Source of the DNA: Mycoavidus cysteinexigens
GTDB lineage: Bacteria; Pseudomonadota; Gammaproteobacteria; Burkholderiales; Burkholderiaceae
DNA: 64,000 bases
Direction of reading: 5' to 3'
Assembly (NCBI GenBank): GCA_031963445.1
Contig: JASSUH010000002.1
Span: forward strand, 78,772 to 142,771
A model generated the notes under the pieces. The model was not told where the DNA came from, searched no databases, and saw nothing but the letters and a program-made list of their open reading frames with translations. Positions 10,338-63,320 of this stretch are shown here, in pieces. The translations under genes were made by a program, and so were the position numbers. Positions within the stretch are counted from its first letter, which is position 1. Each line of letters opens with the position of its first letter.

Positions 10338-10730
10338 CTATTGTTCCCAATCTTCAACGCTTAATTTTGGTATACGCGCAAATTCTCGTAGGTTATGGGT
10401 AATAAGCGTCAAATTGCGTGCTCTCGCTTGCCCCGCAATCAATACATCATAGGGGCCAATAGGTGTTCCTTGTATCGCTAAATAAGCCCGTATTTCTGCT
10501 GCTTGCTTTGCATCTTCCGTATCAAGCTCTAATACTTCAAATTGCAATTGATTAACCACCGCTAAATTTTTATCTATTTTTTGGCTTTTATAAGCCCCAT
10601 AAAATAATTCATGTATGACAAGCGCAGATATCCCAAATTTATCAGGAGAATGCTGCTGAAGATGGGTAAGTAATCCGCTGTGGCCTTTTAATAGCGCAAT
10701 AATGGCATTGGTATCGAGTAAATATTTCAT
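10338..10730 (-). CDS. vapC: Type II toxin VapC (PIN-domain ribonuclease)
   Basis: MKYLLDTNAII start and the acidic PIN residues (D in LLDTN, E in HEL, D in YDVLIAG). Its start has a 4-nt overlap with the stop of the upstream antitoxin ORF. Confidence 0.9.
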   Translation of the reverse strand: MKYLLDTNAIIALLKGHSGLLTHLQQHSPDKFGISALVIHELFYGAYKSQKIDKNLAVVNQLQFEVLELDTEDAKQAAEIRAYLAIQGTPIGPYDVLIAGQARARNLTLITHNLREFARIPKLSVEDWEQ

Positions 10731-19619: not shown

Positions 19620-20013
19620 AAGGTTCCCCTTATTAGGCGCTACTAATGATCTACGGCGTAGCAGGTGTACTGCGAGGCAATAGGCATTTCGCAGCAAACG
19701 CTTTTTGAATAAACAGAATACCTACGCGATCACGCTGATAGAATCAGGTAATCCCTAGATTTTTAAATCTTCTCTTATTGTTAGGTTGGCATTGGTTTTC
19801 CAAACGTCCATCATTTGAAAACCTGTTTCGCACAACTGATAGCTGAAAAGATATCCCCGCAACATGAGCATGAAGAAAGCAATAGCGGAGCATCATTTAG
19901 TTAATCCAAATTGGACTTCAGCTAATTTGCAGAGCAAGAAGGCTGCATAAGGGTAAGAAACGCGCGGTCAGACTGGAAGCAGCTCCTCTCTTAATTTTCG
20001 AGAGATTACGTGA

Positions 20014-25475: not shown

Positions 25476-25672
25476 AGGGCGCTTCCCCTTCGGGACCGGG
25501 CTGTCGCGCTGCGCGTCGAGCCTGTCTTCTCCAGTCTCGCTACATTCGTACATCCATCCCTAACGCACGCGCCTTTGGCGCTTCAACAACCTAGTTAGCC
25601 TTCGGCCCTATTGGGCCTCCAGATTAGCGCTCGCCGCGCTGCTTTTTGCGTCGGTGTCATGCAGGACATACC
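25476..25672 (+). repeat. Composite structured element, copy 1 (module A only, truncated at the start of the long hairpin)
   Basis: Aligns with 27478-27675. It breaks at CTAAATTGAC, which also occurs in the res candidate. Confidence 0.8.
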
Positions 25673-25686
25673 CTAAATTGACGTAC

Positions 25687-25803
25687 TGATAGCTCAAAAA
25701 AAACTATATTGAGACAGCTTTCTAAAAATATTGAGGGCGGTACGGCGGATGAGCGCTAAATTTGGATCAGCTTGTTTGTGTTGAGTCTTGGGGTAGGAGA
25801 TAT
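25687..25803 (+). repeat. Direct repeat copy 2 (~117 bp)
   Basis: Matches 20989-21104 and lacks the 30-bp palindrome. Confidence 0.8.
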
Positions 25804-25974
25804 TTGTAAGGCTAAAGTTGTAACGTCGTATCTGAGCAAAGTTCAAATGGCGCATGGCATGCTTTCGCTTCTTCATACAGGAGCGAGGCACGGCAATCCT
25901 CAATACGATAACGATGAGAGAACTTGATAAGCTAAAATAACTCACTCTTCATAAGACTTACAGCCAACGAAGTA

Positions 25975-27117
25975 TCATTCTTGTGATGCTCCTGTTTTAA
26001 CTTGAGGCTCCATGGAATTAAGCATTACCTGGGCTGCTCCATAGCGGAGATCCGTGCCGCCTGTCCTGTAGAATAAGTCCGATAAGGCTAAGTACGAATC
26101 CACGGACAGCGGAACGATTCGTGACAAATTAGGGTTCTTTCCGAATAACTCGGATGCCAGAGATCTGAGCTCGTGCTCTTCGTTTTGATCTAATAAGATG
26201 GAAAGCAAGCCCAAGCGCATCTCTTTGGAGATTACTTCGTCAGGCACATTTTTAAGTATCTTATCCTGACGGTTTAGTATTTTGCCTGCTGCACTCCTAA
26301 TCTTTTTATCTTCATATGTATTTGCGAAGAAAGTAATCAAAGGCAAAAATACACTATATAGAAGGTTACCATCGGGCAACTTATATCCAGCATGAAATGA
26401 AGGGCACCCCCTTAATGCTTCGGCCGCTGCGAGCCTGATATCCATATCTTTTTTAGAGATTAAAATGGAAATTAAGGCTAAAGATACCTCGAAAGATAAA
26501 GTTCGCACCGGTTTGCTTAATGCCTGAGCTACTGCAAGCTTGAGCTCTTTATCTTCCCTTTTATTCTCCAAGATAGAGGTAAGAAAATGATTAATTTTAT
26601 TGAATGCAGGAGTAGTATCTTTTGTCTGTTTCCGATAGTTATATATTAAAACGTCTTCATGCTTGAAATAATTTAAAACTTCTAAATAATTACAATACAG
26701 TGCAATAAGCTTTTTTTTCTCTTGCAGATTTTCAGGATTTCTTTTTTGCTTAGTTTCAGCAATTTTTAAAGCAGCGTCATACAGCTCTTCTATCGTGCTT
26801 AGGTTGCCCAGAAATTCACCTGTCAAACCGTCCAAATCAGACTTATAGCTCATTAAAAAACTCGCATACTCGCTATAAATTGTAATAAGTAAGTCTTCTT
26901 TTTCCTGATTAGAAAAATCTCTTGCTAGCTCTGCTTTAGTCGAGTCTATGGCTTTTTCAAAAAAGCCTCTGGCATTCTGTAAATCCTCCTGGTTTCTTGT
27001 AGGTTTGTCAAAAGCTTCTTTATACTCGCGTGCCAGTGCTAAATGGTCTATCCTCCCTGCTATAGGAGAAGCTTGATAGGATCTTAGGCTGAGTTGGCTC
27101 GATACATTATTGATCAT
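25975..27117 (-). CDS. HEAT/ARM-like repeat protein with an alpha-helical (TPR-like) N-terminus
   Basis: C-terminal units such as DMDIRLAAAEALRG, DKKIRSAAGKILNRQ and EHELRSLASELFGK. Confidence 0.6.
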   Translation of the reverse strand: MINNVSSQLSLRSYQASPIAGRIDHLALAREYKEAFDKPTRNQEDLQNARGFFEKAIDSTKAELARDFSNQEKEDLLITIYSEYASFLMSYKSDLDGLTGEFLGNLSTIEELYDAALKIAETKQKRNPENLQEKKKLIALYCNYLEVLNYFKHEDVLIYNYRKQTKDTTPAFNKINHFLTSILENKREDKELKLAVAQALSKPVRTLSFEVSLALISILISKKDMDIRLAAAEALRGCPSFHAGYKLPDGNLLYSVFLPLITFFANTYEDKKIRSAAGKILNRQDKILKNVPDEVISKEMRLGLLSILLDQNEEHELRSLASELFGKNPNLSRIVPLSVDSYLALSDLFYRTGGTDLRYGAAQVMLNSMEPQVKTGASQE

Positions 27118-27477
27118 TTTTTTCTCTAAATTATTGAAACTTTACTTAGAAGAATAGGCAAAAATAGGTAAAAAATAATCCATTGTTTAACGGAAAGCCC
27201 AGAGCATCTGCAACTGGGTGGCTTCAAAAATCAATTGCAACCTGTTTAGCCAAACGAGCTTTCTGTAATTGTTGAGCCAAAGCTTGCGTATGGCCTCTCC
27301 GAATACGCCACTGACCGAGTTTCAATCGTCGTTAATTACATTCCTTCGATCAAAATATCTTTTCTTCATCGCAACACTTTAATAACAATAAAACATTGCA
27401 CTTGAAATTAGAGATTAAGCAGTATCAAACTTTCATCTTTCCCCTCAAAATCACCTCATTGTAGATAAAACCATCAT

Positions 27478-27969
27478 GGCGTTTCCCCTTCGGGGCCGGG
27501 CTGTCGCGCTGCGCGTCGAGCCTGTCTTCGCCAGTCTCGCTACATTCGTACATCCGTCCCTAACGCACGCGCCTTTGGCGCTTCAACCACCCAGTCAGAT
27601 TACGGCCCTGTTGGGCCTCCAGATCGGCGCTCGCCGCGCTGCTTTTTGCGTCGGCAGCCAGCCATGTAGGCCATACCACCGTCTTTCCTTAGTCACTCGT
27701 CTTATCCCGCGAACATAGCTCACCTGTTTTCCCTGTGCAATGGCCGCCCCGTTGGGGCTGAAACACTCACCCGTTCGGCGCAGCCTATGGCTGCGTCCGC
27801 ATGCGGCTTCCTGTTTCTCCATTGCACAGGGAAAACAGGCGGCTATTTTTATTCGCAGGACGAGCGACTAAGGAAAAACGGCGGCATGGCAGACCAATAC
27901 ATCTTGATACCTCAACAAAAAAATTGACAGCGGACTCACGATCTTGGAAGCCGGGCAGCTTTTAAAAAC
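27478..27969 (+). promoter_or_regulatory. Composite structured element, copy 2 (module A + ~230-nt hairpin 27661-27889 + conserved tail)
   Basis: Left arm GCCATG...CCTTAGTCACTCGTC...CTGTTTTCCCTGTGCAATGG pairs with CCATTGCACAGGGAAAACAG...GACGAGCGACTAAGG...CATGGC. Tail is ACCTCAACAAAAAAAT...ATCTTGGAAGCCGG...TTTTAAAAAC. Confidence 0.75.
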
Positions 27970-28015
27970 CAAGGCAAAAGCCTTTTATTTCAATAAGTAA
28001 AAAGGAGAGTTAAAA

Positions 28016-28207
28016 ATGGATAAACCAAAGCAAAAAGGAATGGATTTTGACGAGCTAGAAACTCGGTTAGATAGCAAAACAATTTCTAGTATTAAAGATT
28101 TTATTATTAATGAATATATCGAAGTTGTAAAGAAAAATATAGGTCATGTAAAAAATACGCAAGAAAAAAAGGAAGAAGAGATAAATGAAAGCGATATCCC
28201 ATATTAA
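28016..28207 (+). CDS. Small acidic protein ending in an SSB-tail-like ESDIPY motif
   Basis: AAAGGAGAG Shine-Dalgarno sequence before the ATG. 63 aa. C-terminus is ...KKEEEINESDIPY. Confidence 0.55.
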   Translation: MDKPKQKGMDFDELETRLDSKTISSIKDFIINEYIEVVKKNIGHVKNTQEKKEEEINESDIPY

Positions 28208-28292
28208 ATATAAAGCGTAATTTTAATTAAATTTATGGCGCAAACTTATTATTATTTTAATAAATATCATTTAACTTAAGTATAAGGAATTT

Positions 28293-28673
28293 ATGATGCA
28301 AAACAGTACTTTTGTAGGAAAACTTGTTAGAAATCCAGTTTTAACTGTCAATAATGAGTGTGATGTTTGTAAATTTACATTGATATCTAACGAATTTATT
28401 GAAAAAGACAAAGAGTCGGGAGAAATTCGTGAGCGTGTTGTTTGCGTTCAATTTACTGCATTTAAAGATAAAGCAAAAGTCATTGCTAAACATACATTAA
28501 AAGGAGACCAGTTGCATATTGGCTATCGCATAGAAAATAATCATTATATAGATAAAACAACAGGAGAAGATGTTTATGGATATAACTTTATTGTTAAAGA
28601 ATTTGAATTTGGTTCGCATGGAAAATTGACGCGAGATAAATTTAATAACAGTTATTCAAAATATAATCAGTAA
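28293..28673 (+). CDS. ssb: SSB-like OB-fold single-stranded DNA-binding protein lacking the acidic C-terminal tail
   Basis: The pattern N..F.GKL.R.P.L........V.KF.L......K....GE.RE.V..VQFTAF...A..IA....KGD.L.I.Y......Y.D..G..VY....IV..FEFG parallels bacterial SSB. Confidence 0.65.
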   Translation: MMQNSTFVGKLVRNPVLTVNNECDVCKFTLISNEFIEKDKESGEIRERVVCVQFTAFKDKAKVIAKHTLKGDQLHIGYRIENNHYIDKTTGEDVYGYNFIVKEFEFGSHGKLTRDKFNNSYSKYNQ

Positions 28674-28741
28674 ATTATATTGCCCTTGCTTTGGTGGTAG
28701 AGGTATTTATATTGAATTTTTTTAAAATTTGGAGAGATTAA

Positions 28742-29551
28742 ATGTTACTAGATCATACATTAGATAGCGAAGTACATTCTTTATTTGACCATGTCTGTAT
28801 TAAAGAAATGATGGAAAAAAGGCAATTGAGATTGAATAGTTTTATTAAAATAATAGAAACATCAAAATTTAGAAAGGAAGGCTATAAAGAATCGTGTATT
28901 CCTTTTTATAGGGATTATACAAATTTAAATAACACGGGAAGAAGTTTTATAGGCTATAGATATCATGAGTATTTAGAAATTTCAGACGAAAATATGGGGC
29001 TAATAAAAAAAGATAACGACTGTAGCGGATGGTTATTTTTAATGGAAAAATCAGGCTTGTATCACTATATGGATAAAAAATCTAAGGAAGAGTGGGAGGG
29101 AATAATAAATAGAGGTGATTTTTTAGAGTTGAATTGTAAAAATATAGTAGATACTTTTAGGCCGTACTTTAATAATAAAGAAAAAATGTTTAATAGCAGT
29201 GTGTTAGATTTATTTAAAAGTATTTCTTGGGATAGGGAAAATAATAAACCTTTGGAAATAAAAAGAAAAATAATTACCTCTAGGAATGATGTATTGGATA
29301 ATTTAATTCGGATATTTTGTATTTTAAATAAAAAACCGCAATTAAATATTAATATGTACAGCGCTGTAAGGGCGGTATGTAGGAATGAGGGGGATAAGTG
29401 GGAGTGCGATGATTTCTTTATTCGTTGGTATAACAATGGAAACTACCATGTTATCTTTAAAGATAGTCCAAATTTAAAATTTAATGTTACATTAAAAAAT
29501 ATAAATAACATAGCAATGTCTGAGTACGCTAAAAATATTAACGATAAATAG
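28742..29551 (+). CDS. Hypothetical leading-region protein; paralog of 35904..36815 (possibly DUF4942-like)
   Basis: Shared W.FL.EKSG.Y.YMD.K....W.......DF...N.KNI...F. The C-terminal ...W.C..F.I.W..NGNYHV.F pattern recalls DUF4942 from memory only. Confidence 0.55.
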   Translation: MLLDHTLDSEVHSLFDHVCIKEMMEKRQLRLNSFIKIIETSKFRKEGYKESCIPFYRDYTNLNNTGRSFIGYRYHEYLEISDENMGLIKKDNDCSGWLFLMEKSGLYHYMDKKSKEEWEGIINRGDFLELNCKNIVDTFRPYFNNKEKMFNSSVLDLFKSISWDRENNKPLEIKRKIITSRNDVLDNLIRIFCILNKKPQLNINMYSAVRAVCRNEGDKWECDDFFIRWYNNGNYHVIFKDSPNLKFNVTLKNINNIAMSEYAKNINDK

Positions 29552-29573
29552 TTTTTGAAATGGATTTTATAAA

Positions 29574-30716
29574 ATGAATAATATAAGAAAAATTCAGTAT
29601 TTTATCGAAGAGTTAAAGAGCAGAGACAAATATGTCAGACGTACAGCCGTACAAGCATTAGGCAAGCAAAAAACATTGCTCTCAAAGGCAATGGCATCTT
29701 TGACTTTTTCAATGCAAAAAGATGATTGTGAGTATGTTCGCGCTGAAGCAGCTTGGATATTAAGCAGACAAGAAACCGTACCTCTTGAAACGGTACTGGC
29801 CTTGGTCGCTTTGGTTAAAGATAAAAGCTCGTATATCAGGGATGTGGGAGCAACAATATTAAGCATAAAAAAAATGCTGCCAGATGAAGCCATTGCGGCG
29901 TTGATCTTTGCGATGGAGCATGAATATGAAGAGGTACGTTGGAGTGCTACCAGAGGATTAAGCGGGCAAAGAATGCTGCCCTATAAAGCGATCTTGGCTT
30001 TGATTTTTTCAATAACGAAAGAGGATGAGGATAGAGATGTCAGGATCGGAGCAGTCAAAGCATTGGCAAACCAAAAAGTTTTGCCTCCCCAGGCAATCTC
30101 AGTCTTGTTTTCTTTACTGATGAATAAAAAAGAAAAAGCAAAAGTTAGAGAAGAAATTGCTAAAGCATTACAAAACCAAAAAACACTGCCAGTCGAAATG
30201 ATTGAAACTTTAGTCTTGCTCATGATGAAAGAAGATGAAATCGCGATTATTCGTGAAACTGCTTATCAAATACTGGTTAGACAAAAAAAGCTTCCCCTCG
30301 AGATAGTTTTAAATTTGAACGATATCATGATGAAAAATGAGGGTAAGTATATTAGGATAATGATTGCTTCAATATTAAGTAGGCAAAAAATGTTGCCCAC
30401 AAAAATAATTCAAGACTTTATCCCTATAATATTAAATAAAGATGAAAATATATTTATTAGGCATGAAATTACTAACGCATTAAAGCATCAAAAAATGCTG
30501 CCTCCTGATACGATTTTAGCCTTATGTTCTGCAATTGAGGATAAGGAAGCAGAAAAAAATGTCAAATGGGATGCCATCCTTATATTAGGTGGACAGAGAA
30601 CGCTGCCTTACAATGTGATCTCCATTTTGGATATTGCAACGAAAAATAAAGATGGACACATTAGCAGAGCTGCCACTGAGGCATTAGCGGGAAGAGGCAG
30701 CGCTAGTGACGTGTAG
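29574..30716 (+). CDS. HEAT-repeat (PBS-lyase-type) protein
   Basis: About ten units of the type VR..A..AL..QK.LP.E.I..L...... Confidence 0.8.
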   Translation: MNNIRKIQYFIEELKSRDKYVRRTAVQALGKQKTLLSKAMASLTFSMQKDDCEYVRAEAAWILSRQETVPLETVLALVALVKDKSSYIRDVGATILSIKKMLPDEAIAALIFAMEHEYEEVRWSATRGLSGQRMLPYKAILALIFSITKEDEDRDVRIGAVKALANQKVLPPQAISVLFSLLMNKKEKAKVREEIAKALQNQKTLPVEMIETLVLLMMKEDEIAIIRETAYQILVRQKKLPLEIVLNLNDIMMKNEGKYIRIMIASILSRQKMLPTKIIQDFIPIILNKDENIFIRHEITNALKHQKMLPPDTILALCSAIEDKEAEKNVKWDAILILGGQRTLPYNVISILDIATKNKDGHISRAATEALAGRGSASDV

Positions 30717-30802
30717 TATTGATTACGCCATACATTCAAGGGTCTGAAATGACCTCTTCTCATAGCAATATATTCAACATTCCTCCAAACAATAAAAATA
30801 TC

Positions 30803-30877
30803 AGGGCGTTCCCCCGGCAAAGCCGGGGTCGGGCTTTCGCGCTACGCGTCGAGCCGGTCTACGCCAGTCTCGCCCCT
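30803..30877 (+). repeat. Composite structured element, copy 3, left part (interrupted by the group II intron)
   Basis: AGGGCGTTCCCCC...GCCAGTCTCGCCCCT is colinear with copy 4 up to the intron junction. Confidence 0.8.
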
Positions 30878-33315
30878 GTCGGGTAGCAGCAACCCATTAC
30901 TGAGTCACCGCCCCCAAAGAACGTAACGTGCAACTTTCGCTGCATTACGCTCAGGTATAACAAAAGTCTCGTTCTGAGACCGGCTTCATGATTTTCAAAT
31001 CAAGGCTGTGGACTTGGGCATGGCAGGTGGGATGGAGCAATACTCGATTGCTAAGAGCATCGGTGCCACCATTCATACGGTATTCAATATGATGATCATG
31101 CCAGCCGGTGTCGATATCCATCTCGAACGCACAGAGCGCACACAGGCCTTTTTGAGCTACGTATAGCTTGGCCCACTGGTATCGATAGCCATTATTTTTC
31201 AACAGGCGCTCCTGCCGGATGGTCTCACCATACATTTCCCATTCAGGATCATACGGATGGTATGTGTTCCTGACTTTCTTGTGTCGCTTGATGGGCGTAC
31301 TAGAAAGAGAGTACAGCTCTATGAGTCTCTGACTGCTTTTCTCTCGTTCCATTTCTGCTGCAAACACCCAATGCCGATTACCGACTTCATGCCAATATTT
31401 CTGGCGTATCCATCGACGATTTTTGTTTGGGTGTCTGCGACATGCCCAGCGCCAGAGCAGTCCAAACAAAAGCGATGCTATACGGGAGAATGATTGCTTG
31501 GCACTGGCTGGACGATGGTATTGAGCCCAACCCCGCAGTATAGGATTTAGCAATCGGATTAAATTTGATTGCTTAGCCCCTAAATTGTCGTTGATGACGT
31601 TCCTGATCTTTTCATAGAATGCTTGTGCATTTTTCTTACTTGGCTTGATGAGCAGTTTTTCCGAGTATTTACGGAAATGCCACCCAAGGAAATCGAATCC
31701 TTCATAGATAGATACGATACGTGTTTTGCTTGGAGAGAGTCGCAATCCTCGCTGAGCAAGAAAAGCTTCAATCCACGGTTTGATCTCAGTTTCCAGCACT
31801 TCTTTTGAGTTGCAGGTCACCACAAAATCGTCGCAATAACGTACTACACCCACTTTCTGTTTCCGAGTTTGGCCTACACCCCATTTTCCTTTTAAATGAG
31901 CAATGAGCTGTACTTCCAAACCATTCAACGTCCAATTGGCTGCCGCTGGTGAAATGATTCCTCCTTGCGGGACCCCCGCGGTGGTCTTTTGCCATTGCCC
32001 TCGATCAATGACCCCAGATGCCAGCCACTTGCGTAGCATCGATTTGTCCATGCAGACATTGTCTAGCATCCAGTCTCTTGAAATTTGATCAAAGAAGCCT
32101 TCAATGTCCGCATCTAGCACCCATTTAGCTGAGTTCTTTTTAGCCATTAGGATGAAGATTTGTTCCATCGCATCAGCGGTACAGCGGTTTTTCCTAAATC
32201 CATATGAATTTGGATCACTCACTGATTCCAAAACCGGGTCTAGAGCTAGCAGATAGAGTGCCTGCATAGCCCTGTCGCTCATGGTGAGTATGCCCAATGG
32301 GCGTTCTTTCCCATTTGACTTTGGGATGTAAACCCTTCGTACAGGTGAGGGTTTATACCGCTGCTTCTTTAATTGGGTAATAGCAGTGAACTTTTTCTGT
32401 GATGTATCCCACAGTTCATTGTCCACACCAGCCGTTTTTTTACCTTGATTTTCAGTCACTCGTTTAACTGCTAATGCTTTCGCACTAAACGAGCGAGTTA
32501 GCATCCGTTGTAGCGCTTTCACGCGACGCCATTTGCCACTCTGTGATGCCTTCGTTAAGCGACGCTGTACCACTCTCACATTCGTTTGTACTCGCTTCCA
32601 GTCAATGGAAGTCCAGTCTGTAGGAGTGTGCGAGGACGCAGAACCGATTGAAAGACTGTCGGTTACTCTCATGCTTTTCCTCGAATAATCGAAACCAACC
32701 GATTACGTAAGTGGCCTCAGTGGCTTACGACTGTTATACCCCGCAGAAGTGGGCACTCTTTCGAGCTGGGACAAAGTTTGAATCCCTATCCAGCGCATTA
32801 CACGCCAACCTTCGCTTTTTCTGCGATCCTCTGCCCGCTCCACCAACAGCGTCCCTTGCGGGTTACCTGCCACCTCTGATGATCAGAGGAGTGGCGGTGA
32901 ATCGGGTTTACCGCGTTCCACGTCAATGACACGAGTAGGGTAGGTTCTGCCTATTTGCCGATGGTCTTGTGGGTCCGTGTATTCCTAGTCCGAAAAGAAA
33001 TAACCGATCATGTGCCTTTTGGCTCAAGCCTGTCAGCGCTTTTGGCTTGTTGATTGTGACGACATTTATTAGCAGTTCACTTATATTAACCTTATTACCC
33101 AGCCTAGCACCTCATCCGCCTTTGCGCTGGCAGATAGCACCTCCCACTCACGAGGGATGTGCCGCTCTTATGAGCAGGTTACATTGTCACGGCGGCTCCA
33201 CACAGGGCCGTTACCAACCCTGCATGCGCCGATAGGCTACGACTGACGGAACAGTCGGTTTCTCTATCTGCCGTTAGGCAGATGAAACAATCATTGACGC
33301 AACTTCGCGTCGCAC
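30878..33315 (-). mobile_element. Intact group II intron (about 2.44 kb)
   Basis: The minus strand begins GUGCGACGCG at 33315. Domain V GAGCGUAAUGCAGCGAAAGUUGCACGUUACGUUC lies at 30919-30952. The domain VI stem ends ...CUACCCGAC at 30878. Joining the flanks recreates the uninterrupted sequence of copy 4. Confidence 0.9.
30951..32672 (-). CDS. Group II intron-encoded protein (RT - maturase - HNH endonuclease)
   Basis: RT motifs including YCDDFVV, a maturase X region, and C-terminal CALC...HHIEY...GG.D...N..LLHP.CH..VH (HNH). Confidence 0.95.
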   Translation of the reverse strand: MRVTDSLSIGSASSHTPTDWTSIDWKRVQTNVRVVQRRLTKASQSGKWRRVKALQRMLTRSFSAKALAVKRVTENQGKKTAGVDNELWDTSQKKFTAITQLKKQRYKPSPVRRVYIPKSNGKERPLGILTMSDRAMQALYLLALDPVLESVSDPNSYGFRKNRCTADAMEQIFILMAKKNSAKWVLDADIEGFFDQISRDWMLDNVCMDKSMLRKWLASGVIDRGQWQKTTAGVPQGGIISPAAANWTLNGLEVQLIAHLKGKWGVGQTRKQKVGVVRYCDDFVVTCNSKEVLETEIKPWIEAFLAQRGLRLSPSKTRIVSIYEGFDFLGWHFRKYSEKLLIKPSKKNAQAFYEKIRNVINDNLGAKQSNLIRLLNPILRGWAQYHRPASAKQSFSRIASLLFGLLWRWACRRHPNKNRRWIRQKYWHEVGNRHWVFAAEMEREKSSQRLIELYSLSSTPIKRHKKVRNTYHPYDPEWEMYGETIRQERLLKNNGYRYQWAKLYVAQKGLCALCAFEMDIDTGWHDHHIEYRMNGGTDALSNRVLLHPTCHAQVHSLDLKIMKPVSERDFCYT

Positions 33316-33728
33316 TCGGGCTTCAATCCCTAGCGCACGCGCCTTTGGTGCTTCAAAAACCTAATTAGCCTACGGCCCTGTCGGGCCTTCGTATGGGTGC
33401 TCGCCGCACAGCTTTTTGCGCCGGTGAATTATTTTTCATTTCCCGTCCTTCCTGAGTTCGTCACTTTACCTGAGACATTAGCCCGCCCCTTGGGACACTG
33501 CAAGGGCCGCCTTCGGCTGAAATGCAATCCCGTTCAGTGCTCGCCTACGGCTGTGCTCCGCGTGCGGCAAGGCATTTCTCCCTTGCAGTGTCCCAAGGGG
33601 TGGGCTAACGAAAACGCACAGCGACGAACTCAGGAAGGACGGGAAATGAAAAACAAATGCCAATTCCACCTCAACAAAAAAATCTTAGCTCAGCTCCGAA
33701 TCTTGGAATCCGGGAAGTTTTTAAAAAC
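33316..33728 (+). promoter_or_regulatory. Composite structured element, copy 3, right part (rest of module A + hairpin 33432-33653 + tail)
   Basis: TTTTTCATTTCCCGTCCTTCCTGAGTTCGTC pairs with GACGAACTCAGGAAGGACGGGAAATGAAAAA. The inner stem is CCCCTTGGGACACTGCAAGGG / CCCTTGCAGTGTCCCAAGGGG. The conserved tail is present. Confidence 0.8.
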
Positions 33729-33936
33729 TAAAACTATATTTTTTATTTTTTAAATAAAGGCTTTATGTATGAATAAAGAAAATGTTGAAAATAATAATTT
33801 ATAAAATACAGCAAAAGGAGGTCAGGTGAAAATATAAATTTTACTCTATATAGTTTATATAAAATTTAATTTCCGTTATGAAGAAAATATTAAAGCATCA
33901 GAATTTATGCTTGCGCTCAAGATAGGAGAAGATGAA

Positions 33937-34305
33937 ATGACTCAACGCATCTTAAAAACCTCAATAAATGAATGTGCTGTAAACGTCTTAATGGGTTGGG
34001 ACAGAGCCTTGCAGTATTATTTTATGGTAATTAATTACGTTGATAGCGATGATGAGCCGCTATACAGTAATCTTGATGATGACGACGCCGGTATAAATAT
34101 AAAAAATGAACTACCCTATTTTTTAAAAAAAGCTCGTTCATTTAATATCAAGATACCAGAAGCAATGATTGCCAGGTTACAAGCGGATAAGACATTGAAC
34201 CTTGGTAATGAAAAATCATTTTTTAATGAAGATTGCACAGAACCTACAATTAAATCCATGCTTAAAAAAATATTAAAAATATTTTTGAGGCCGATAGGTA
34301 TTTAA
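33937..34305 (+). CDS. Hypothetical protein; paralog of 8372..8806
   Basis: Starts MTQRILKTSIN after an AGGAG. See 8372..8806. Confidence 0.6.
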   Translation: MTQRILKTSINECAVNVLMGWDRALQYYFMVINYVDSDDEPLYSNLDDDDAGINIKNELPYFLKKARSFNIKIPEAMIARLQADKTLNLGNEKSFFNEDCTEPTIKSMLKKILKIFLRPIGI

Positions 34306-34437
34306 TTAAATATTTAATATGTTTTAGAAATATTTGTAATTGAGTTAAAACTGCTTAATTTTAATGGTGAGTTTTCTTCGTTAGAGGAGACATCTTAGGC
34401 AGGTTTTTTTAATCTAAATTTTTGGAAAGCACTTAAC

Positions 34438-35220
34438 ATGAACCATTACGAAGAAAAACAAGCAGCTCGTAAAGCGCGACTTGAAGAATTGGCAATAAAA
34501 GCTGAAGAGCAAGCAGATAGCCTTAATAACCGAGCGAAAGAAATGGCTAGCGTAATCCCATTTGGTCAGCCCATTATCATCGGCCATCATTCAGAAGGTA
34601 CTGATCGCCGGTATCGCGCACGCATACATAATATGTTTCATAAGGCTTATGCGTTGCGTGAGAAAGCTGAAACCTATCAGGACAAAGCCTTGTCCGTTGG
34701 CAACGGGGGCATCTCATCCGATGACCCAGAGGCCATTATCAAGCTGCGTGAAAAGCTAACCAAACTTGAATCGATACAAGAAAAAATGAAGGAGGCGAAT
34801 AAGTTAGTGCGGCGTAAGGATCGCACAGGTTTAACGCAATTGGGATTTTCAGAAGAGTCTATTGATAAGTTGTTAATGCCAGACTTCTGTGGTCGTTTGG
34901 GTTTCCCTAAGTTTGAGCTACAAAACAACAACGCGAATATTCGACATATCAAATTGCGCATTCGGGCATTAGAAGAGCTAAGACAGCGTTCTGATAAGGA
35001 ATTGCAAGGTGATGGTTATATCTATAAAGAGGACGTGGAAGATAACCGCATTTTGTTTATTTTCCCTGGTAAGCCGGACGAGGCGACCCTTAGTATGTTG
35101 AAGCACCACTCTTTTAAGTGGAGTCAGAAACGTAAAGCCTGGGTACGGCAGCTAAATAACCGTGGCTTGTGGGTAGCTGAGCAAGTGAGAAAAATATTAG
35201 ATAACGCATCTCGTGATTGA
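34438..35220 (+). CDS. DUF3560-family protein (typical plasmid/ICE leading-region gene)
   Basis: The pattern ...RA.RL...A.KAE..A........A..IPFGQPI..GHHSE...RR......N...KA..L..KA..Y..KA......ISSDDP.AI.KLR.KL..LE..QE.MK..N matches my memory of DUF3560. Confidence 0.7.
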   Translation: MNHYEEKQAARKARLEELAIKAEEQADSLNNRAKEMASVIPFGQPIIIGHHSEGTDRRYRARIHNMFHKAYALREKAETYQDKALSVGNGGISSDDPEAIIKLREKLTKLESIQEKMKEANKLVRRKDRTGLTQLGFSEESIDKLLMPDFCGRLGFPKFELQNNNANIRHIKLRIRALEELRQRSDKELQGDGYIYKEDVEDNRILFIFPGKPDEATLSMLKHHSFKWSQKRKAWVRQLNNRGLWVAEQVRKILDNASRD

Positions 35221-35384
35221 TTTTTACAACAAGAAAAATACGAGAGCATGCAACTCACTTTAAAACGAAACGGCCTATCTCTTTCTGCTCTGTCAGTACT
35301 GCCTCTGCGGGGCTAACAGAGCAGAGTAGCTTAAATTTCATTTATATCTTTTTATCTCTCTCATTAATAAAAATCCTAAGTATT

Positions 35385-35882
35385 AGGGCGTTCCCCCTTC
35401 GGGGTCAGGCTTTCGCGCTGCGCGTCGAGCCTGACTACGCCAGTCTCGCCCCTTCGGGCTTCAATCCTTAACGCACGCGCCTTTGGCGCTTCAAAAACAT
35501 TAATCAGCCTACGGCCCTGTAGGGCCTCCGGATAGGCGCTTGCCGCGCGGCTGTTTGTATCGGTGGGTTGTAGTTTTTCATTTTCCGTCTTCCGTCTTCC
35601 TGAGTTCGTCACTTTATGTGCAAAGTTAGCGCACCCCTTTGGACACTACAAGGGCCGCCTTCGGCTGAAATTCAATCCCGTTCGGTGCGCGCCTACGGCT
35701 GTGCTCCGCGTGCGGCAATGAATTTCTCCCTTGCAGTGTCCAAAGGGGTGCGCTAACAAAAACGCACAGCGACGAACTCAGGAAGACGGAAAACGAAAAA
35801 TGAAAAACAAATGCCAATTCCACCTCAACAAAAAAATCTTTGATCAGCTCGAAATCTTGGAATCCGGAAATTTTTTAAAAAC
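35385..35882 (+). promoter_or_regulatory. Composite structured element, copy 4 (uninterrupted; hairpin 35575-35807; tail ends 22 nt before the next ATG)
   Basis: Near-identical to copy 3 over module A, the hairpin and the tail. Confidence 0.8.
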
Positions 35883-35903
35883 TTTTTATAGGATGATTGG
35901 AAA

Positions 35904-36815
35904 ATGCTAGAAAATATGGAAATAGATGATAATTTTATTGGGTTAATTTCTTGCGATGAGATAAAAGAAATTTTAGATAAAAAAGACGAAGCATTAGAGA
36001 TTGCGGAAAAAGGCATGCATCTAATTGAATTATCAAATAAGATTTCTAATAAAATTAATACTGAAAATTATACTAATGGTATAAATGAAGATTTTGATTG
36101 TATTGGCTCTTTTAATCGCCTTAAATCTCTAGACAAGCAAAGCATGATGTGTGCATTAGAAAAAGATTGGAGCAAAAAGATATGGCAATTTTTAGCAGAA
36201 AAGTCTGGAATATATGATTATATGGATTCTAAGACATTCGGTGGATGGAGTAACAGGGTAAGTAACAATGATTTTCCTGATATTAATATTAAAAATATAA
36301 AAGAAATATTCAAAGAATATTTCTCTAGGTTAGAAATAATGATTGATGAGAATGTAATAAATTTGTTGCATTCTTTTAATTTTAAAAATCACCTCCCAGA
36401 AAAAATAATTATTAAAGATTTAATATATGATGATCCTTTTGAGCATAATTATAACGACGAAAAAGTAGATGACGAAGATGAATATTTTTATGTTGTAGGT
36501 GTGTCAAAAATAAATAAATTGTTAAATGTATGCTATATGTTGGATAATAAATTTAAAGAAAAATGTGATATAAAAAATAATTTGATCGAAACGTTAAAGT
36601 CCGGTGAGAATGAATGGAAATGTGAGTATATTACTGTTTCTTGGAAGCAAAGAGTAGGTTTTTTAAATATCACTGATAAATTAGTTTTTAAAAAAATAAC
36701 TGATATTATAAAAAAGAAAATTTCTGAAAAATTTGATGAGAATGAATATGATAAGATATTAGCGTTTGATGAGGAAGAGTATGGATATGATGGATATGAA
36801 AATGAAGTGCCATAA
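35904..36815 (+). CDS. Hypothetical leading-region protein; paralog of 28742..29551
   Basis: See 28742..29551. Very AT-rich, with an acidic C-terminus. Confidence 0.55.
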   Translation: MLENMEIDDNFIGLISCDEIKEILDKKDEALEIAEKGMHLIELSNKISNKINTENYTNGINEDFDCIGSFNRLKSLDKQSMMCALEKDWSKKIWQFLAEKSGIYDYMDSKTFGGWSNRVSNNDFPDINIKNIKEIFKEYFSRLEIMIDENVINLLHSFNFKNHLPEKIIIKDLIYDDPFEHNYNDEKVDDEDEYFYVVGVSKINKLLNVCYMLDNKFKEKCDIKNNLIETLKSGENEWKCEYITVSWKQRVGFLNITDKLVFKKITDIIKKKISEKFDENEYDKILAFDEEEYGYDGYENEVP

Positions 36816-36985
36816 ATAATTAAATATATAAAAATTTACTGCTTGTAAATAAAAAATTTAGGCTAGTTATTATGCTAGTCTAAATTTGGTTTTCTAATTA
36901 CAAATATCTTTATCCACTTATGCCGAGAAATAATGTATAAACAAATTTTCTGTATATACGGGGCTGGCCCCGCACCCCTAAAAAT

Positions 36986-37082
36986 CGCTCACACACCACG
37001 CAACTAACGTTGCAGGCGTGAAACCCTCTATTGATAAGGGTTATAGCTGTCAGACACATAAATAACTCGTGTCAGACACATA
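36986..37082 (-). promoter_or_regulatory. Candidate oriT (TrwC/R388-type hairpin plus nic core on the minus strand, and accessory-protein repeats)
   Basis: The minus strand reads GCAAC-GTTA-GTTGC GTGGTGTGT|GAGCG (37013 to 36986). R388, from memory, reads GCACC-GAAA-GGTGC GTATTGTCT|ATAGC. Two direct TGTCAGACACATA repeats lie at 37049-37061 and 37070-37082. The IR AAACCCT...AGGGTT lies at 37021-37042. Confidence 0.55.
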
Positions 37083-37122: not shown

Positions 37123-37548
37123 ATGCCGAAGATAAAACGGATTAGAAAAAAGGATGATAATCGAGTGACGTTTCGGCTTGATGAAGATACACGGCAATTT
37201 TATAAAGCGGAGGCAGAGTCTCGTAATATCGATTTATCTGAATACATCCGTCAATCTGTGATGCGTGGCTTGATTAGTGATAATGCTGAAAAAATTCAAG
37301 AAAACTTTATATATATAACTTCTAAGTTTCTAGAAGAATTTATAGATACAGCTTCTAAGGTTCAAGAAAACGGGAAGAATGTACAAGCCGCTATTCCTGA
37401 TGAGGTAATACGATCTATTTTTACTATTGAAGAAATACTTAAAAAATTAGTATTAAGTGAGAATATACAAGCCTACTATAAAGTAAAAGATAATGCGCAA
37501 GCTAGGTTGGAAGAACTTAAAAGTGAATCAAATAGCGTGATTGAGTGA
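37123..37548 (+). CDS. Ribbon-helix-helix relaxosome accessory protein (TrwA/TraY/MobC-like)
   Basis: The N-terminal basic arm is followed by RVTFRLDEDTRQFYKAEAESRNIDLSEYIRQSV (RHH pattern). The gene lies immediately beside the oriT candidate. Confidence 0.6.
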   Translation: MPKIKRIRKKDDNRVTFRLDEDTRQFYKAEAESRNIDLSEYIRQSVMRGLISDNAEKIQENFIYITSKFLEEFIDTASKVQENGKNVQAAIPDEVIRSIFTIEEILKKLVLSENIQAYYKVKDNAQARLEELKSESNSVIE

Positions 37549-37567: not shown

Positions 37568-38650
37568 TTAGAAAATAAATTCTATCTCTTGATTTTTCTC
37601 ATTCTTTATACCTTTATAGCTAAATTGATGTGAGATTAAATTATTCCCTGCTAAGTAAATGAGTTCAATATTTGTTTTTGATGACCTTAATTTCTGCAGT
37701 AAAAAATGCATTCCAGAGGGATTTATGCAGTTATAACTTATATTTAAATTCTTTAAGTCTTTTCGTAAGGAGTGAATTATATTATATAAACCTAAGTCAC
37801 CTATTTGGTTATGACTTATATCTAAAGTCTCAATGGCAATATGTTTAATATAATCTGAAAAATGGATTGCTCTTTTTTCGCTCATGTTATTGTTACTTAA
37901 ATTTAATTTAATAATAGTTTTTTCTTTCAATGCCATGCCTAACTGATATATTGCTGAATCATTATTAATGTTACTATTTTTTAGGCTTAAGTAATGAATG
38001 GCATAAAGCTGTCTATTATTATCTAATGTCTGTGATAATTTCTCGGTAAATAGCTTGAAATTTGAAGAAAAAATGCTGTCAGCAATAATAGAAAGGCTTT
38101 CTATATTTGTTTTGCGAGACAATAAGTTAAGCACAAATAAATTTTTTCTTATCTTGCCTTTGCTAATGTCAATCGAAATATGCTTCGTTTTGCTCAAAAT
38201 AATTTTAATACCGTAGTAGGCTTGAGCATCATTAAAGCTGCTTTTGATATTGCAGATGGTTGATTTGCAGGTGTTTCTTTTGTTTCTGTCGTTGGCTGAT
38301 AGATTTTGATCTATAAATTTCTCATGCTCTTTTAATTTCTTTAAAAAATTTATATCGCTGCAAATTGAGCTATGGTATTTTGATTTTTTATAATATACGC
38401 TTTTTAAAAAATCATTGAGTCCTGAGTAAAATGCTTTGTTGACTCTTGATATGATATATAGTTGAGTTACGGATTTAATCGGCTCATAATTATGTATTAT
38501 GTAGATGAAAATTTTAAATATCAATTCTATCGGTAAGTCTAACTCTCTTTCGTGATGGTTATTTATACCGTCTTTTAATTTTGGTTGAAATGAAGAAGAA
38601 AGCAATGAAGGGTGCTGGCTTGAAGAGATATTGATAGAAGAAGAAAACAT
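37568..38650 (-). CDS. F-box + leucine-rich-repeat (RNI-type) protein; eukaryote-like effector candidate
   Basis: F-box-like LPIELIFKIFIYI...ISRVNKAFY. C-terminal LRRs (LNLSNNNMSEK.., LDISHNQIGDLG.., LNISYNCINPSG..). Confidence 0.75.
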   Translation of the reverse strand: MFSSSINISSSQHPSLLSSSFQPKLKDGINNHHERELDLPIELIFKIFIYIIHNYEPIKSVTQLYIISRVNKAFYSGLNDFLKSVYYKKSKYHSSICSDINFLKKLKEHEKFIDQNLSANDRNKRNTCKSTICNIKSSFNDAQAYYGIKIILSKTKHISIDISKGKIRKNLFVLNLLSRKTNIESLSIIADSIFSSNFKLFTEKLSQTLDNNRQLYAIHYLSLKNSNINNDSAIYQLGMALKEKTIIKLNLSNNNMSEKRAIHFSDYIKHIAIETLDISHNQIGDLGLYNIIHSLRKDLKNLNISYNCINPSGMHFLLQKLRSSKTNIELIYLAGNNLISHQFSYKGIKNEKNQEIEFIF

Positions 38651-38757
38651 GATTTATCTCGTCTTTAATTTTAGTTTTTTATATACAAATATCAGTAGCG
38701 TGTAATATATATGATTGAGATAAATCTATAGCAGAGAAATGCGGTTAAACGTGTCTT

Positions 38758-63117: not shown

Positions 63118-63320
63118 TCGACTTGCTGCTGAAACAACGGCAGCTTGGGTTTAGTCGCCCAAATGCTTAAGACTTGGTTTTGCTTCTATGGCGGAACCTT
63201 GTGGGGAAGCCTTCGGGCTTGCCGTTTCTTAAGTGACGGTCGACTAACCCTGCTTGGTTCCGCCACCTTTTGTTTAGTCGCAAAGGGTAGCGGGGAATAG
63301 ACCCACTTAAGGAGCAAGCC

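What the first reader, a model, noticed from the sequence alone, without database searches (positions are those of the whole stretch)
25476..36990. Leading-region-like block punctuated by a repeated composite structured element (candidate ssDNA promoters or priming signals)
A ~500-nt element occurs in three full copies (27478-27969; 30803-30877 plus 33316-33728; 35385-35882) and one truncated copy (25476-25672).
- Module A is an ~180-nt GC-rich segment made of short hairpins, several capped by TTCG, with indels and substitutions that keep the pairing. For example, CCCCCTTCGGGG in one copy corresponds to CCCCCGGCAAAGCCGGGG in another.
- Module B is a 220-230-nt imperfect hairpin. Copy 2 has a different stem sequence from copies 3 and 4, yet the hairpin architecture is kept.
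- The tail is conserved: ACCTCAACAAAAAAAT - ~16 nt - ATCTTGGAA(G/T)CCGG - ~6 nt - TTTTAAAAAC.

Each full copy sits directly upstream of a run of AT-rich + strand genes (SSB-like, DUF3560, paralogous unknowns, a HEAT protein). These genes are transcribed toward the predicted nic at about 36990. With that nic on the minus strand, this block would enter a recipient first, and the transferred strand would be the template for these genes. That is the geometry known for Frpo/ssi single-strand promoters in the F and ColIb-P9 leading regions, where anti-defence and establishment genes cluster. In the promoter-proximal arm of all three hairpins, a TTGCA(C/G) hexamer is followed after 16-17 nt by TATTTT, TAACGA or TAACAA. 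This is a weak signal. I do not recognise the element as any described family.
Basis: partly seen in the sequence, partly recalled or inferred. Interest (0 to 1): 0.85.

Follow-up and report, generated by a model that had tools for sequence, protein, structure and literature searches.

The report
Single-strand promoter repeats beside oriT
Three full copies and one stump of a ~500-base GC-rich folded element sit in front of the first genes this conjugative element sends into a new host. They are distant relatives of the known single-stranded-DNA promoters of plasmids F, IncI, IncW and IncN, so the element is real and looks functional, but it is of a known kind.

Summary
Three full copies and one truncated copy of a composite element lie at the stated coordinates. 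Copy 3 is split by a minus-strand group II intron. All copies lie in the + strand gene block left of an F/R388-like oriT, whose nic motif is on the minus strand at about 36990.

- Module B, the 230-nt hairpin, belongs to a hairpin family found in at least 140-420 mostly conjugative plasmids (Burkholderia, IncW upstream of ardC, Xanthomonas, Serratia). The IncW member shares a significant local match with F's class-2 ssDNA promoter (ssp2).
- Module A is homologous to a repeat in 1364 plasmids. These include four copies in an IncN leading region, probably the CUP repeats, and the segments just upstream of F's Frpo1 and Frpo2.

Mismatches in the long stems are mostly G·T on the minus (transferred) strand. 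That strand carries TTGNAN-17-TANNNT next to a bubble. No function was tested.

The least-described part is module A. It is a covariation-supported four-way junction whose role is unknown.

The parts
25476..25658 (-). Copy 1: solo module A (truncated copy, no hairpin B and no tail). It is 91% identical to copy 2 module A and lies exactly 2000 nt upstream of it.
27476..27657 (-). Copy 2, module A: closed domain with a four-way junction, followed by short hairpins.
27670..27890 (-). Copy 2, module B: long imperfect hairpin. On the minus strand the -35-like TTGCAC is at 27740..27735 and the -10-like TATGTT at 27717..27712. The conserved core starts at 27770.
   Evidence: (I4)
27896..27969 (+). 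Copy 2 tail (ACCTCAACAAAAAAAT ... ATCTTGGAAGCCGG ... TTTTAAAAAC), predicted to be 5' UTR. The first gene's ATG is at 28016.
   Evidence: (D3)
30803..30877 (-). Copy 3, module A, left part (up to the loop of hairpin P4).
30878..33315 (-). Group II intron inserted in copy 3 (RT/maturase ORF at 30951-32672). It is not part of the element.
33316..33429 (-). Copy 3, module A, right part.
33429..33656 (-). Copy 3, module B hairpin. On the minus strand the -35-like TTGCAG is at 33503..33498 and the -10-like TAATGT at 33480..33475. The conserved core starts at 33529.
   Evidence: (I2, I5)
33661..33728 (+). Copy 3 tail, including a small hairpin plus T-run (33701-33725) that looks like a terminator. 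The first gene's ATG is at 33907.
35385..35567 (-). Copy 4, module A.
35573..35808 (-). Copy 4, module B hairpin. On the minus strand the -35-like TTGTAG is at 35651..35646 and the -10-like TAACTT at 35628..35623. The conserved core is at 35677-35716. The predicted start of the + sense RNA is near 35765.
   Evidence: (I1, I3)
35813..35882 (+). Copy 4 tail. The first gene's ATG is at 35904.
36986..37014 (-). oriT core. The minus strand reads GCAAC-GTTA-GTTGC GTGGTGTGT|GAGCG. By analogy with F and R388 the nic is predicted between 36991 and 36990.
28016..30716 (+). Operon after copy 2: 63-aa ORF, SSB (28293-28673), DUF4942 (28742-29551), HEAT protein (29574-30716).
33907..35220 (+). Operon after copy 3: 132-aa protein of unknown family, then DUF3560 (34438-35220).
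35904..36815 (+). Gene after copy 4: DUF4942 paralogue, the last gene before oriT.

Best explanation
The block 25.4-37.0 kb is the leading region of a MOBF (TrwC-type) conjugative element. Each repeat is a composite cis element that works on the transferred minus strand while that strand is still single-stranded in the recipient.

Module B. It folds into a ~230-nt hairpin. The upper stem rebuilds a sigma-70-type promoter: CCCTTGNAN as the -35, a 17-nt spacer, and TANNNT as the -10, with an internal loop around the start site. The apex carries a conserved branched core. RNA polymerase would start in the stem and read out through the base of the hairpin. That gives + sense RNA with a ~140-nt leader (right arm plus tail) followed by the SSB, DUF4942, DUF3560 and HEAT genes.

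What known relatives suggest. The same RNA could prime complementary-strand synthesis, and the hairpin could act as a roadblock that keeps the downstream operon single-stranded and expressed for longer. Conversion to duplex DNA removes the hairpin and switches the promoter off.

Module A. It is a separate closed domain (four-way junction plus hairpins). It lies on the side from which complementary-strand synthesis would arrive. Its role is unknown. My best guess is that it reinforces the roadblock or gives a host factor a platform.

Shown here: the repeats, the folds, the covariation, the strand asymmetry, the homology and the geometry. Inferred: transcription, priming, roadblock action and the role of module A.
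For: Geometry.
- The nic motif is on the minus strand at 36986-37001 and is unique in the window. F has the same orientation.
- TrwA-like, T4CP and TrwC genes lie downstream.
- All copies are confined to this block.

Fold.
- ssDNA z-scores are -16.3 and -14.2.
- 25 of 57 pairs in module B have compensatory changes.

Strand.
- Over ten hairpins, 29 single mismatches are A·C on the + strand (G·T on the minus strand), against 6 of the opposite kind. For the three window copies the count is 11 against 3.
- F's Frpo1 and Frpo2 behave the same way (5 against 1, and 3 against 0).
- The DNA folding energy favours the minus strand in 10 of 10 hairpins.

Promoter.
- TTGCAC-17-TATGTT, TTGCAG-17-TAATGT and TTGTAG-17-TAACTT lie on the minus-strand arm, with T1, A2 and T6 kept while positions 3-5 vary. 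An unpaired stretch follows.
- CCCTTG is conserved across the family and reads TTGACA or TTGACC in a small MOBV plasmid.
- The scan found no sigma-70-type duplex promoter in the tails of copies 2 and 4.

Homology.
- A module B profile built from the window alone hits Burkholderia, Mycetohabitans and Dechloromonas plasmid elements (E 4e-13 to 2e-7).
- blastn finds its 40-nt core in 140 plasmids. The IncW version, upstream of ardC, is found in 420 plasmids.
- The IncW hairpin aligns locally with F's class-2 hairpin (score 42 against 19.9 +/- 2.4 for shuffles).
- Module A hits 1364 plasmids, 91% of them conjugative.
- A module A profile built without F hits F just upstream of Frpo2 (E 5.7e-7) and Frpo1 (E 2e-5).

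Literature.
- Class 1-3 ssDNA promoters have mapped start sites (PMC12672017).
- ssp2 is a replication roadblock, and Frpo transcripts prime synthesis in vivo (bioRxiv 10.64898/2026.01.09.698686).
Against: - No transcript, primer or start site is known for this element or for its closest relatives (Burkholderia, IncW).
- The link to the experimentally studied F ssp2 is indirect. Window to IncW/Burkholderia is strong, IncW to F is a 37-nt local match, and the window-based profile does not hit F directly.
- The hexamers are weak: the -35 matches only TTG, and 7 of 12 positions match overall.
- I could not reconstruct the published -35/-10 of Frpo from its sequence, so the placement of the promoter on the loop-to-base arm is my own inference.
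- The host and its RNA polymerase specificity are unknown.
- Module A shows no strand asymmetry in the mismatch test.
- The tail hairpin has G·U pairs only on the + strand, so part of the element may act as RNA.
- Copy 3 has a promoter-like site at 33826-33854.
Confidence: 0.7

Rival explanations
1. The element acts as + strand RNA. It would be a long structured leader, riboregulator or 3'-end stabiliser transcribed from an ordinary upstream promoter. The hairpins would control translation, stability or termination of the leading-region mRNAs.
For: - Many loops read C(UNCG)G on the + strand.
- The tail has a small hairpin with G·U pairs only on the + strand, followed by a U-run.
- Module A shows no strand bias in the mismatch test.
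- The + strand RNA fold is also highly significant (z = -13.5).
Against: - Stem mismatches favour minus-strand pairing 29 to 6. The minus strand folds better with DNA parameters in 10 of 10 hairpins, and with RNA parameters in the one copy folded on both strands, copy 4.
- UNCG on the + strand is by necessity C-GNA-G on the minus strand. The P2 triloop is TNC on the + strand, which is GNA on the minus strand, in 25 of 28 homologues. Only the latter is a known stable loop (own knowledge).
- There is no Rfam match, even at E = 5.
- The scan found no promoter upstream of module A.
- Relatives in F are ssDNA promoters by experiment.
Confidence: 0.1
2. It is a duplex-DNA regulatory region of the IncN CUP type. 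A conserved upstream repeat would carry an ordinary promoter and an operator for a plasmid repressor (ArdK/KorA-like). The hairpins would be incidental.
For: - Module A is about 80% identical to a repeat present four times in an IncN leading region.
- There, the repeat is followed by TTGACT-17-TATACT and AT-rich operator-like DNA.
- IncW has a canonical promoter downstream of its hairpin.
- CUP elements are described as ArdK-regulated promoters (PMC6289460, PMC5371602).
Against: - In the window the scan found no sigma-70 duplex promoter in the tails of copies 2 and 4.
- No TrfB/ArdK-like gene was recognised among the ORFs scanned.
- Compensatory changes keep a 230-nt hairpin, which a duplex operator does not need.
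- The strand-asymmetric mismatches are unexplained by this model.
Confidence: 0.1
3. It is mainly a replication signal. The hairpin and module A would serve as a single-strand initiation (priming) site and/or a roadblock for complementary-strand synthesis. Gene expression would come from elsewhere.
For: - F ssiD (Frpo) was first isolated as a priming signal.
- ssp2 stalls complementary synthesis, and Frpo transcripts prime it.
- A 2.5-kb MOBV plasmid with a single annotated gene (the relaxase) keeps two hairpin cores of this family.
- The terminator-like tail could set a primer length.
Against: - This is not exclusive of the promoter model. In F the same hairpins do both jobs.
- Each copy sits directly upstream of an operon that the scan leaves without another promoter.
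- A TANNNT motif is conserved at the correct spacing.
Confidence: 0.08
4. It is a generic REP/MITE-like selfish repeat, or simply a product of local duplication, with no function of its own.
For: - There are multiple copies.
- One solo stump (copy 1) lies exactly 2000 nt from copy 2.
- CUP repeats are known recombination substrates (PMC3490853).
Against: - All copies lie in one orientation inside the leading block, and none lies elsewhere in the 64 kb.
- 91% of the 1364 plasmids with module A are conjugative.
- In the loci inspected it mostly sits upstream of co-oriented SSB, DUF932, ParB, methylase or ArdC genes near the T4CP and relaxase genes.
- The structure shows covariation.
- No terminal inverted repeats or target duplications were seen.
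Confidence: 0.02

Closest known systems
Class 2 ssDNA promoters (ssp2; upstream of ardA and klcA in pESBL, and of the KlcA-homologue operon in F) - Wen et al. 2025, PMC12672017; Fraikin et al. 2026 preprint
   Same: - It is a long hairpin in the T-strand of the leading region, directly upstream of establishment or anti-defence operons.
- Shared motifs are GCAAGGG...CACCCG on the left arm and GCGGCTTCC...CCCTTGC on the right arm.
- The IncW relative of the window hairpin aligns with F's hairpin (z about 9).
   Different: - The window hairpin has a compact apex with a 40-nt core (CCCGTTCGGTGC.CGCCTACGGCTG.GCTCCGCGTGCGGC), where F has a longer, different apex.
- Direct window-to-F similarity is not significant.
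- The window copies are preceded by module A, and F's ssp2 is not.
Frpo / ssiD / ssi1-3 (class 1 ssDNA promoters of F and ColIb-P9) - Masai & Arai 1997; PMC9849209
   Same: - Same position, polarity and principle: a hairpin that rebuilds -35 and -10.
- The mismatch asymmetry goes the same way.
- The segments just upstream of Frpo1 and Frpo2 are homologous to module A (motif GTCTCCGCCCTGGCGGGCTTCCATCCCTGACGC).
   Different: - The class 1 hairpin itself (A/T-rich apex, ~300 nt) has no detectable sequence similarity to module B.
- The published Frpo (ssiD, D90178) does not include the module A core.
CUP (conserved upstream repeat) elements of IncN plasmids - Delver & Belogurov 1997; PMC5371602
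   Same: - It is a repeated element at the head of co-directional leading-region operons.
- Four IncN copies match module A at 80-83% identity.
   Different: - IncN copies end in a canonical duplex promoter and operator rather than a class-2-type hairpin.
- I could not read the original paper, so equating my IncN hits with CUP rests on their number and position.
Single-strand origins (ssoA/ssoU) of rolling-circle plasmids
   Same: - They are folded ssDNA recognised by host RNA polymerase to make a primer (own knowledge).
- A 2.5-kb MOBV plasmid carries two hairpin cores of the window's family.
   Different: - There is no sequence relation to described sso types that I could test.
- The window elements precede operons instead of serving a replicon.

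Membership tests
ssDNA promoters of conjugative leading regions (Frpo/ssi/ssp, as a kind) | Lies in the leading region, with the transferred strand as template of the downstream genes | tested here: met
   The nic motif is on the minus strand at 36986-37001, the genes are on the + strand, and TrwA-like/T4CP/TrwC genes follow. F has the same layout.
ssDNA promoters of conjugative leading regions (Frpo/ssi/ssp, as a kind) | Long, very stable imperfect hairpin formed by the transferred strand | tested here: met
   ssDNA z-scores are -16.3 and -14.2. 25 of 57 pairs are compensatory. G·T pairs fall on the minus strand 29 to 6.
ssDNA promoters of conjugative leading regions (Frpo/ssi/ssp, as a kind) | -35 and -10 hexamers rebuilt in the stem at 16-18 nt spacing, with local unpairing near -10/+1 | tested here: met
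   TTGCAC-17-TATGTT, TTGCAG-17-TAATGT and TTGTAG-17-TAACTT, each with a bubble after the -10. The match to consensus is weak (7 of 12).
ssDNA promoters of conjugative leading regions (Frpo/ssi/ssp, as a kind) | RNA polymerase starts transcription on the single strand but not on the duplex | not testable with these tools
   Needs in vitro transcription or 5'-end mapping in transconjugants.
Class 1 (Frpo1/2, ssi1-3) | Sequence homology of the hairpin to F ssiD / ColIb ssi | tested here: not met
   Module B profiles do not hit Frpo1 or Frpo2 in F. Only the upstream flank (module A) is homologous.
Class 2 (ssp2; ardA/klcA hairpins) | Sequence homology of the hairpin to the F/pESBL class 2 hairpin | tested here: inconclusive
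   The link is transitive only. Window to IncW/Burkholderia is strong. IncW to F is a 37-nt local alignment at z about 9. Window to F directly is not above shuffles.
IncN CUP repeats | Repeat shared by the heads of leading-region operons, with sequence similarity to the IncN copies | tested here: met
   Four IncN copies in L123 match module A (E 1e-12 to 3e-14). They align over about 100 nt.
IncN CUP repeats | ArdK operator plus duplex sigma-70 promoter at the 3' end | tested here: not met
   The scan found no such promoter in the tails of copies 2 and 4. No ArdK/TrfB-like protein was found among the scanned ORFs.
REP/MITE-type repeats | Copies dispersed regardless of gene context; terminal inverted repeats or target duplications | tested here: not met
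   Copies occur only in the leading block and in one orientation. 91% of plasmids with hits are conjugative.
Described structured RNA families (Rfam 15) | Match to a covariance model | tested here: not met
   There are no hits for the element at the gathering threshold or at E up to 5, in the window or in five related loci.

The most novel reading that the evidence does not exclude
Module A is an autonomous, ancient structural domain of the transferred single strand: a closed four-way junction of about 105 nt with near-invariant junction sequences. It would have its own function in plasmid establishment, for example stalling complementary-strand synthesis, loading a primosome or recruiting a host factor. 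On this reading it has been carried along unnoticed inside IncN 'CUP' repeats, beside F/IncI Frpo promoters, and in Burkholderia-, Pseudomonas- and Xanthomonas-type plasmids, combined freely with different promoter modules.
Probability: 0.35. Interest if true: 0.75.

Novelty: new member of a known kind. Interest (0 to 1): 0.55.

Why it matters
Single-strand promoters decide which plasmid genes are expressed in the first minutes after entry, including SSB, anti-restriction and SOS-control genes. They are a current focus of work on plasmid spread.

This window matters in two ways.
- The class-2-type hairpin family reaches far beyond enterobacterial plasmids. Here it sits in an AT-rich element full of eukaryote-like repeat proteins, and it is kept as GC-rich islands among 26-39% GC genes. 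That argues for strong selection on the fold.
- Module A links three things that the literature I could read does not connect: IncN CUP repeats, the flanks of F's Frpo1/2, and Burkholderia-type elements. A defined, covariation-supported structure gives experimenters a precise object to delete or mutate.

Tried and rejected
- Rfam at the gathering threshold and at E up to 5, on the window and on five related loci. It found only introns and tRNAs.
- An exact-pattern scan of genome contigs with TCGCGCTRCGCGTCGAGCC. It gave 119 stretches, nearly all chance matches in GC-rich coding DNA (typA/fusA-like). Only 9 were true elements.
- A sigma-54 reading of the tail (TGG-N10-GC). It fits copy 2 only, so I rejected it by inspection.
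- A duplex sigma-70 promoter in the tail. None passed the scan for copies 2 and 4.
- The idea that the intron is specialised for module A. The second intron has unrelated flanks.
- A look-up of the relaxase in the contig index to learn the source organism. It is not on record.
- A mismatch-asymmetry test on module A. It was uninformative, 0 against 1.
- Reconstructing the published -35/-10 of Frpo from the ssiD sequence, to check my choice of arm. I could not do this with confidence.
- Reading Delver & Belogurov 1997. The paper is not held.
- I did not build a covariance model. nhmmer profiles and alignment-based pair counts already answered the questions.

Full report
**1. The observation**

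- The repeat finder recovers a 190-nt family at 25465, 27465, 33235 and 35374. It recovers a 228-nt pair at 33448 and 35596, and a 91-nt tail family at 27880, 33639 and 35793.
- It also finds long inverted repeats inside each full copy: 41 nt at 93%, 37 nt at 95% and 32 nt at 88% complementary.
- A four-way alignment shows the quoted details. These are CCCCCTTCGGGG against CCCCCGGCAAAGCCGGGG, a hairpin in copy 2 with different stem sequence, and the tail ACCTCAACAAAAAAAT...ATCTTGGAAKCCGG...TTTTAAAAAC.
- nhmmer profiles built from the copies find nothing else in the 64 kb.
- The gap in copy 3 (30878-33315) is a minus-strand group II intron. Rfam RF02012 and RF00029 match it, and its ORF is a TIGR04416 reverse transcriptase/maturase. 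The joined flanks read like copy 4.
- Copy 1 is a solo module A.
- The elements are 50-65% GC, among genes of 26-39% GC.
- Folded as ssDNA, the minus strand of module B has z = -16.3 (copy 4) and -14.2 (copy 2).

**2. Context and polarity**

- To the right lie a NikA/TrwA-like gene (37123-37548), a TrwB-type coupling protein gene, a YhcG nuclease gene and a TrwC relaxase gene, all on the + strand.
- Between the last leading gene and the TrwA-like gene, the minus strand reads GCAAC-GTTA-GTTGC GTGGTGTGT GAGCG. This is a hairpin followed by a 9-nt F/R388-like nic core. The comparison with R388 rests on my own knowledge.
- The motif is unique in the window.
- In F the experimentally known nic sequence GCGTGGGGTGT|GGTGCTTT lies on the same strand relative to the leading genes and traM.
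- So the minus strand would enter 5' end first, towards lower coordinates, and it would be the template for the + strand genes.
- Those genes are typical leading-region content: SSB, DUF3560 (next to ssb in IncW), two DUF4942 paralogues and a HEAT protein.
- The relaxase is 62% identical to those of betaproteobacterial MOBF plasmids.

**3. Module B is a member of a widespread hairpin family**

- A profile made from the three window copies alone hits elements in Burkholderia ubonensis pRF23, in a Mycetohabitans plasmid, and in Dechloromonas and other betaproteobacterial contigs (E 4e-13 to 2e-7).
- These share the lower-stem words CTGAGTTCG/CGACGAACTCAGG and a 40-nt core, CCCGTTCGGTGC.CGCCTACGGCTG.GCTCCGCGTGCGGC.
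- blastn finds the core in 140 plasmids. Among them are an IncW plasmid, where it lies in the 734-nt spacer upstream of ardC, and a 2.5-kb MOBV plasmid.
- The IncW version is found in 420 plasmids, including Serratia, Yersinia and Xanthomonas.
- In every member the core is followed by CCCTTG(A/C). This reads TTGACA or TTGACC in the small plasmid.
- Across six family members, 25 of 57 predicted pairs carry compensatory changes.

**4. Which strand folds**

In the long stems I counted isolated mismatches. Under no strand preference, G·T and A·C should be equally common.
- Over ten hairpins (three from the window, four from Burkholderia-type plasmids, and F's Frpo1, Frpo2 and class 2), 29 are A·C on the + strand. 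These are G·T on the minus strand. Only 6 are the reverse.
- The window alone gives 11 against 3.
- The positive controls Frpo1 and Frpo2 give 5 against 1 and 3 against 0.
- The DNA folding energy favours the minus strand in 10 of 10 hairpins.
- This points to the transferred strand. Some of the hairpins are paralogues, so the counts are not fully independent.

**5. Promoter reading**

RNA polymerase must move towards the 5' end of the transferred strand.
- On the minus strand, the arm running from the loop to the base reads TTGCAC-17-TATGTT (copy 2), TTGCAG-17-TAATGT (copy 3) and TTGTAG-17-TAACTT (copy 4).
- T1, A2 and T6 of the second hexamer are kept while the middle positions vary. An internal loop follows it.
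- The predicted start for copy 4 is near + strand position 35765. That gives a leader of about 140 nt made of the right arm and the tail.
- The hexamers are weak by the E. coli consensus.
- The duplex scan finds no sigma-70 site in the tails of copies 2 and 4. It finds one 9-of-12 site at 33826-33854 before the copy 3 operon.
- The tail contains a small hairpin with G·U pairs only on the + strand, followed by a T-run. It may act at the RNA level as an attenuator or a primer-length determinant. This is inference only.

**6. Module A**

- blastn with copy 4's module A hits 1364 plasmids, 91% of them conjugative. They come from Escherichia, Klebsiella, Pseudomonas, Burkholderia, Xanthomonas and others.
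- In the loci inspected it mostly lies in a spacer upstream of co-oriented SSB, DUF932, ParB, methylase or ArdC-like genes, near the T4CP and relaxase genes.
- An IncN plasmid has four copies. In number and position these fit the 'CUP' conserved upstream repeats of IncN leading regions (PMC5371602, PMC6289460). I could not read the original description.
- A profile built from 25 copies without F hits F at L003 5105-5180 (E 5.7e-7) and 10515-10569 (E 2e-5). These are the segments just upstream of Frpo2 and Frpo1. The shared string GTCTC-hairpin-GGGCTTCCATCCCTGACGC is visible by eye.
- The published Frpo (ssiD) does not include the module A core. Several 'Frpo*' candidates of Samuel & Burstein do include it.

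Structure of module A, from a 28-sequence alignment:
- An outer helix GGGCTK/MATCCC, with 15 T-A against 10 G-C at one pair.
- P2, with 15 C-G against 13 T-A at one pair.
- A variable P3.
- A P4 hairpin.
- Overall 92% of cells are paired. The covariation score is 0.284 against 0.112 in shuffles (0 of 500 reach it) and at most 0.07 for slid partners.
- An invariant GGCGT/ACGCC pair of segments could close the whole domain (inspection).

Other properties of module A:
- The mismatch test is uninformative here.
- The DNA energy favours the minus strand in 25 of 28 sequences.
- The P2 triloop is TNC on the + strand, which is GNA on the minus strand, in 25 of 28 sequences.
- Module A occurs with class 1 hairpins (F) and with class-2-type hairpins (window, L100, L099). 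It also occurs with another hairpin core (pRF23) and with a duplex promoter (IncN). It occurs alone as well (window copy 1; IncN L123 10034).
- Module B occurs without it in the fetched IncW region, the MOBV plasmid and pRF23.
- So the two modules are separable units.

**7. Relation to what is known**

- Frpo1 and Frpo2 are needed for early expression of leading genes from ssDNA in F (PMC9849209).
- Wen et al. 2025 defined three classes of ssDNA promoters in pESBL and F, with mapped start sites (PMC12672017).
[quoted passage not shown] It also shows that Frpo transcripts prime that synthesis.
- The IncW relative of the window hairpin shares GCAAGGGTACGCTTCGCCGC...TCACCCG with F's class 2 hairpin (score 42 against 19.9 +/- 2.4 in shuffles). 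Direct window-to-F similarity is not significant.
- I therefore file module B as working like, and probably related to, class 2 ssDNA promoters. Membership is not proven.
- Class 1 membership of the hairpin is rejected.
- No Rfam family matches.

**8. Verdict**

The polarity is the same as in F.
- It is not a new kind of element. It is a divergent member of the leading-region ssDNA promoter repertoire, joined to a conserved upstream domain shared with IncN CUP repeats and with F's Frpo flanks.
- The part that deserves follow-up is module A. It has a well-supported fold, strong sequence conservation across distant plasmids, and no known role.

Noticed in passing
window 30878-33315 (-); also 11246-13660 (-) and near 49653-49758 (-): Group II introns lie on the minus strand. 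The first is inserted exactly in the loop of hairpin P4 of module A in copy 3. Its sense strand is the predicted transferred strand. The second has unrelated flanking exons, so the intron is not specialised for the element.
   Followed up: partly
window 63184-63270 (+): A C4 antisense RNA (RF01695, 68.6 bits) is present. This is the immunity RNA of P1/P7-type phages, and it suggests a phage- or plasmid-prophage-derived segment at the right end of the window.
   Followed up: no
window 2765-7648 (+), 14203-18273 (-), 18237-19697 (-), 21620-24448 (-), 37568-39990 (-): There are many large eukaryote-like repeat proteins (WD40, ARM/TPR, HEAT, LRR). One WD40 gene lies in a 56-64% GC island inside otherwise 27-45% GC DNA. 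This fits an intracellular or amoeba-associated host, but the source organism was not identified.
   Followed up: partly
window 41887-42975 (+): A YhcG/DUF1016 PDDEXK nuclease gene sits between the coupling-protein and relaxase genes.
   Followed up: no
L128 (Salmonella 2.5-kb MOBV plasmid NZ_CP130098.1), about 1550-1850: This plasmid, with a single annotated gene (the relaxase), carries two different hairpin cores of this family in opposite orientations. Each ends in CCCTTGAC (-35-like). That would suit use as single-strand origins or priming promoters.
   Followed up: partly
window 27941-27969, 33699-33728, 35853-35882 (+): The conserved tail forms a small hairpin (CTTGG-AAK-CCGG) whose wobble pairs exist only on the + strand, followed by a T-run. 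The scan flagged 33701-33725 as terminator-like. It could be an RNA-level attenuator in the predicted leader.
   Followed up: no
window 25476-25658 versus 27476-27657: The solo module A (copy 1) lies exactly 2000 nt upstream of copy 2 and is 91% identical to it. The DNA between them carries a minus-strand HEAT-like gene (25975-27117). This looks like an insertion or recombination that left a stump.
   Followed up: no
window copies 2-4; alignment A1 columns 46-48: CTNCG pentamers on the + strand, which read C-GNA-G on the minus strand, occur nine times in copy 4. The P2 loop is TNC/GNA in 25 of 28 homologues. IncW, F and MOBV hairpins carry GCGAAGC on the transferred strand next to the -35. d(GCGAAGC) is known as an unusually stable DNA mini-hairpin (own knowledge).
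   Followed up: partly
L129 (IncW pMTY10660) 4213-4945 and 8479-8582: The R388-type IncW backbone has two copies of the class-2-like hairpin, one of them upstream of ardC. In the ardC spacer (4213-4945) a canonical duplex promoter with operator-like repeats follows. So the ardC hairpin has both a single-strand and a duplex promoter.
   Followed up: partly
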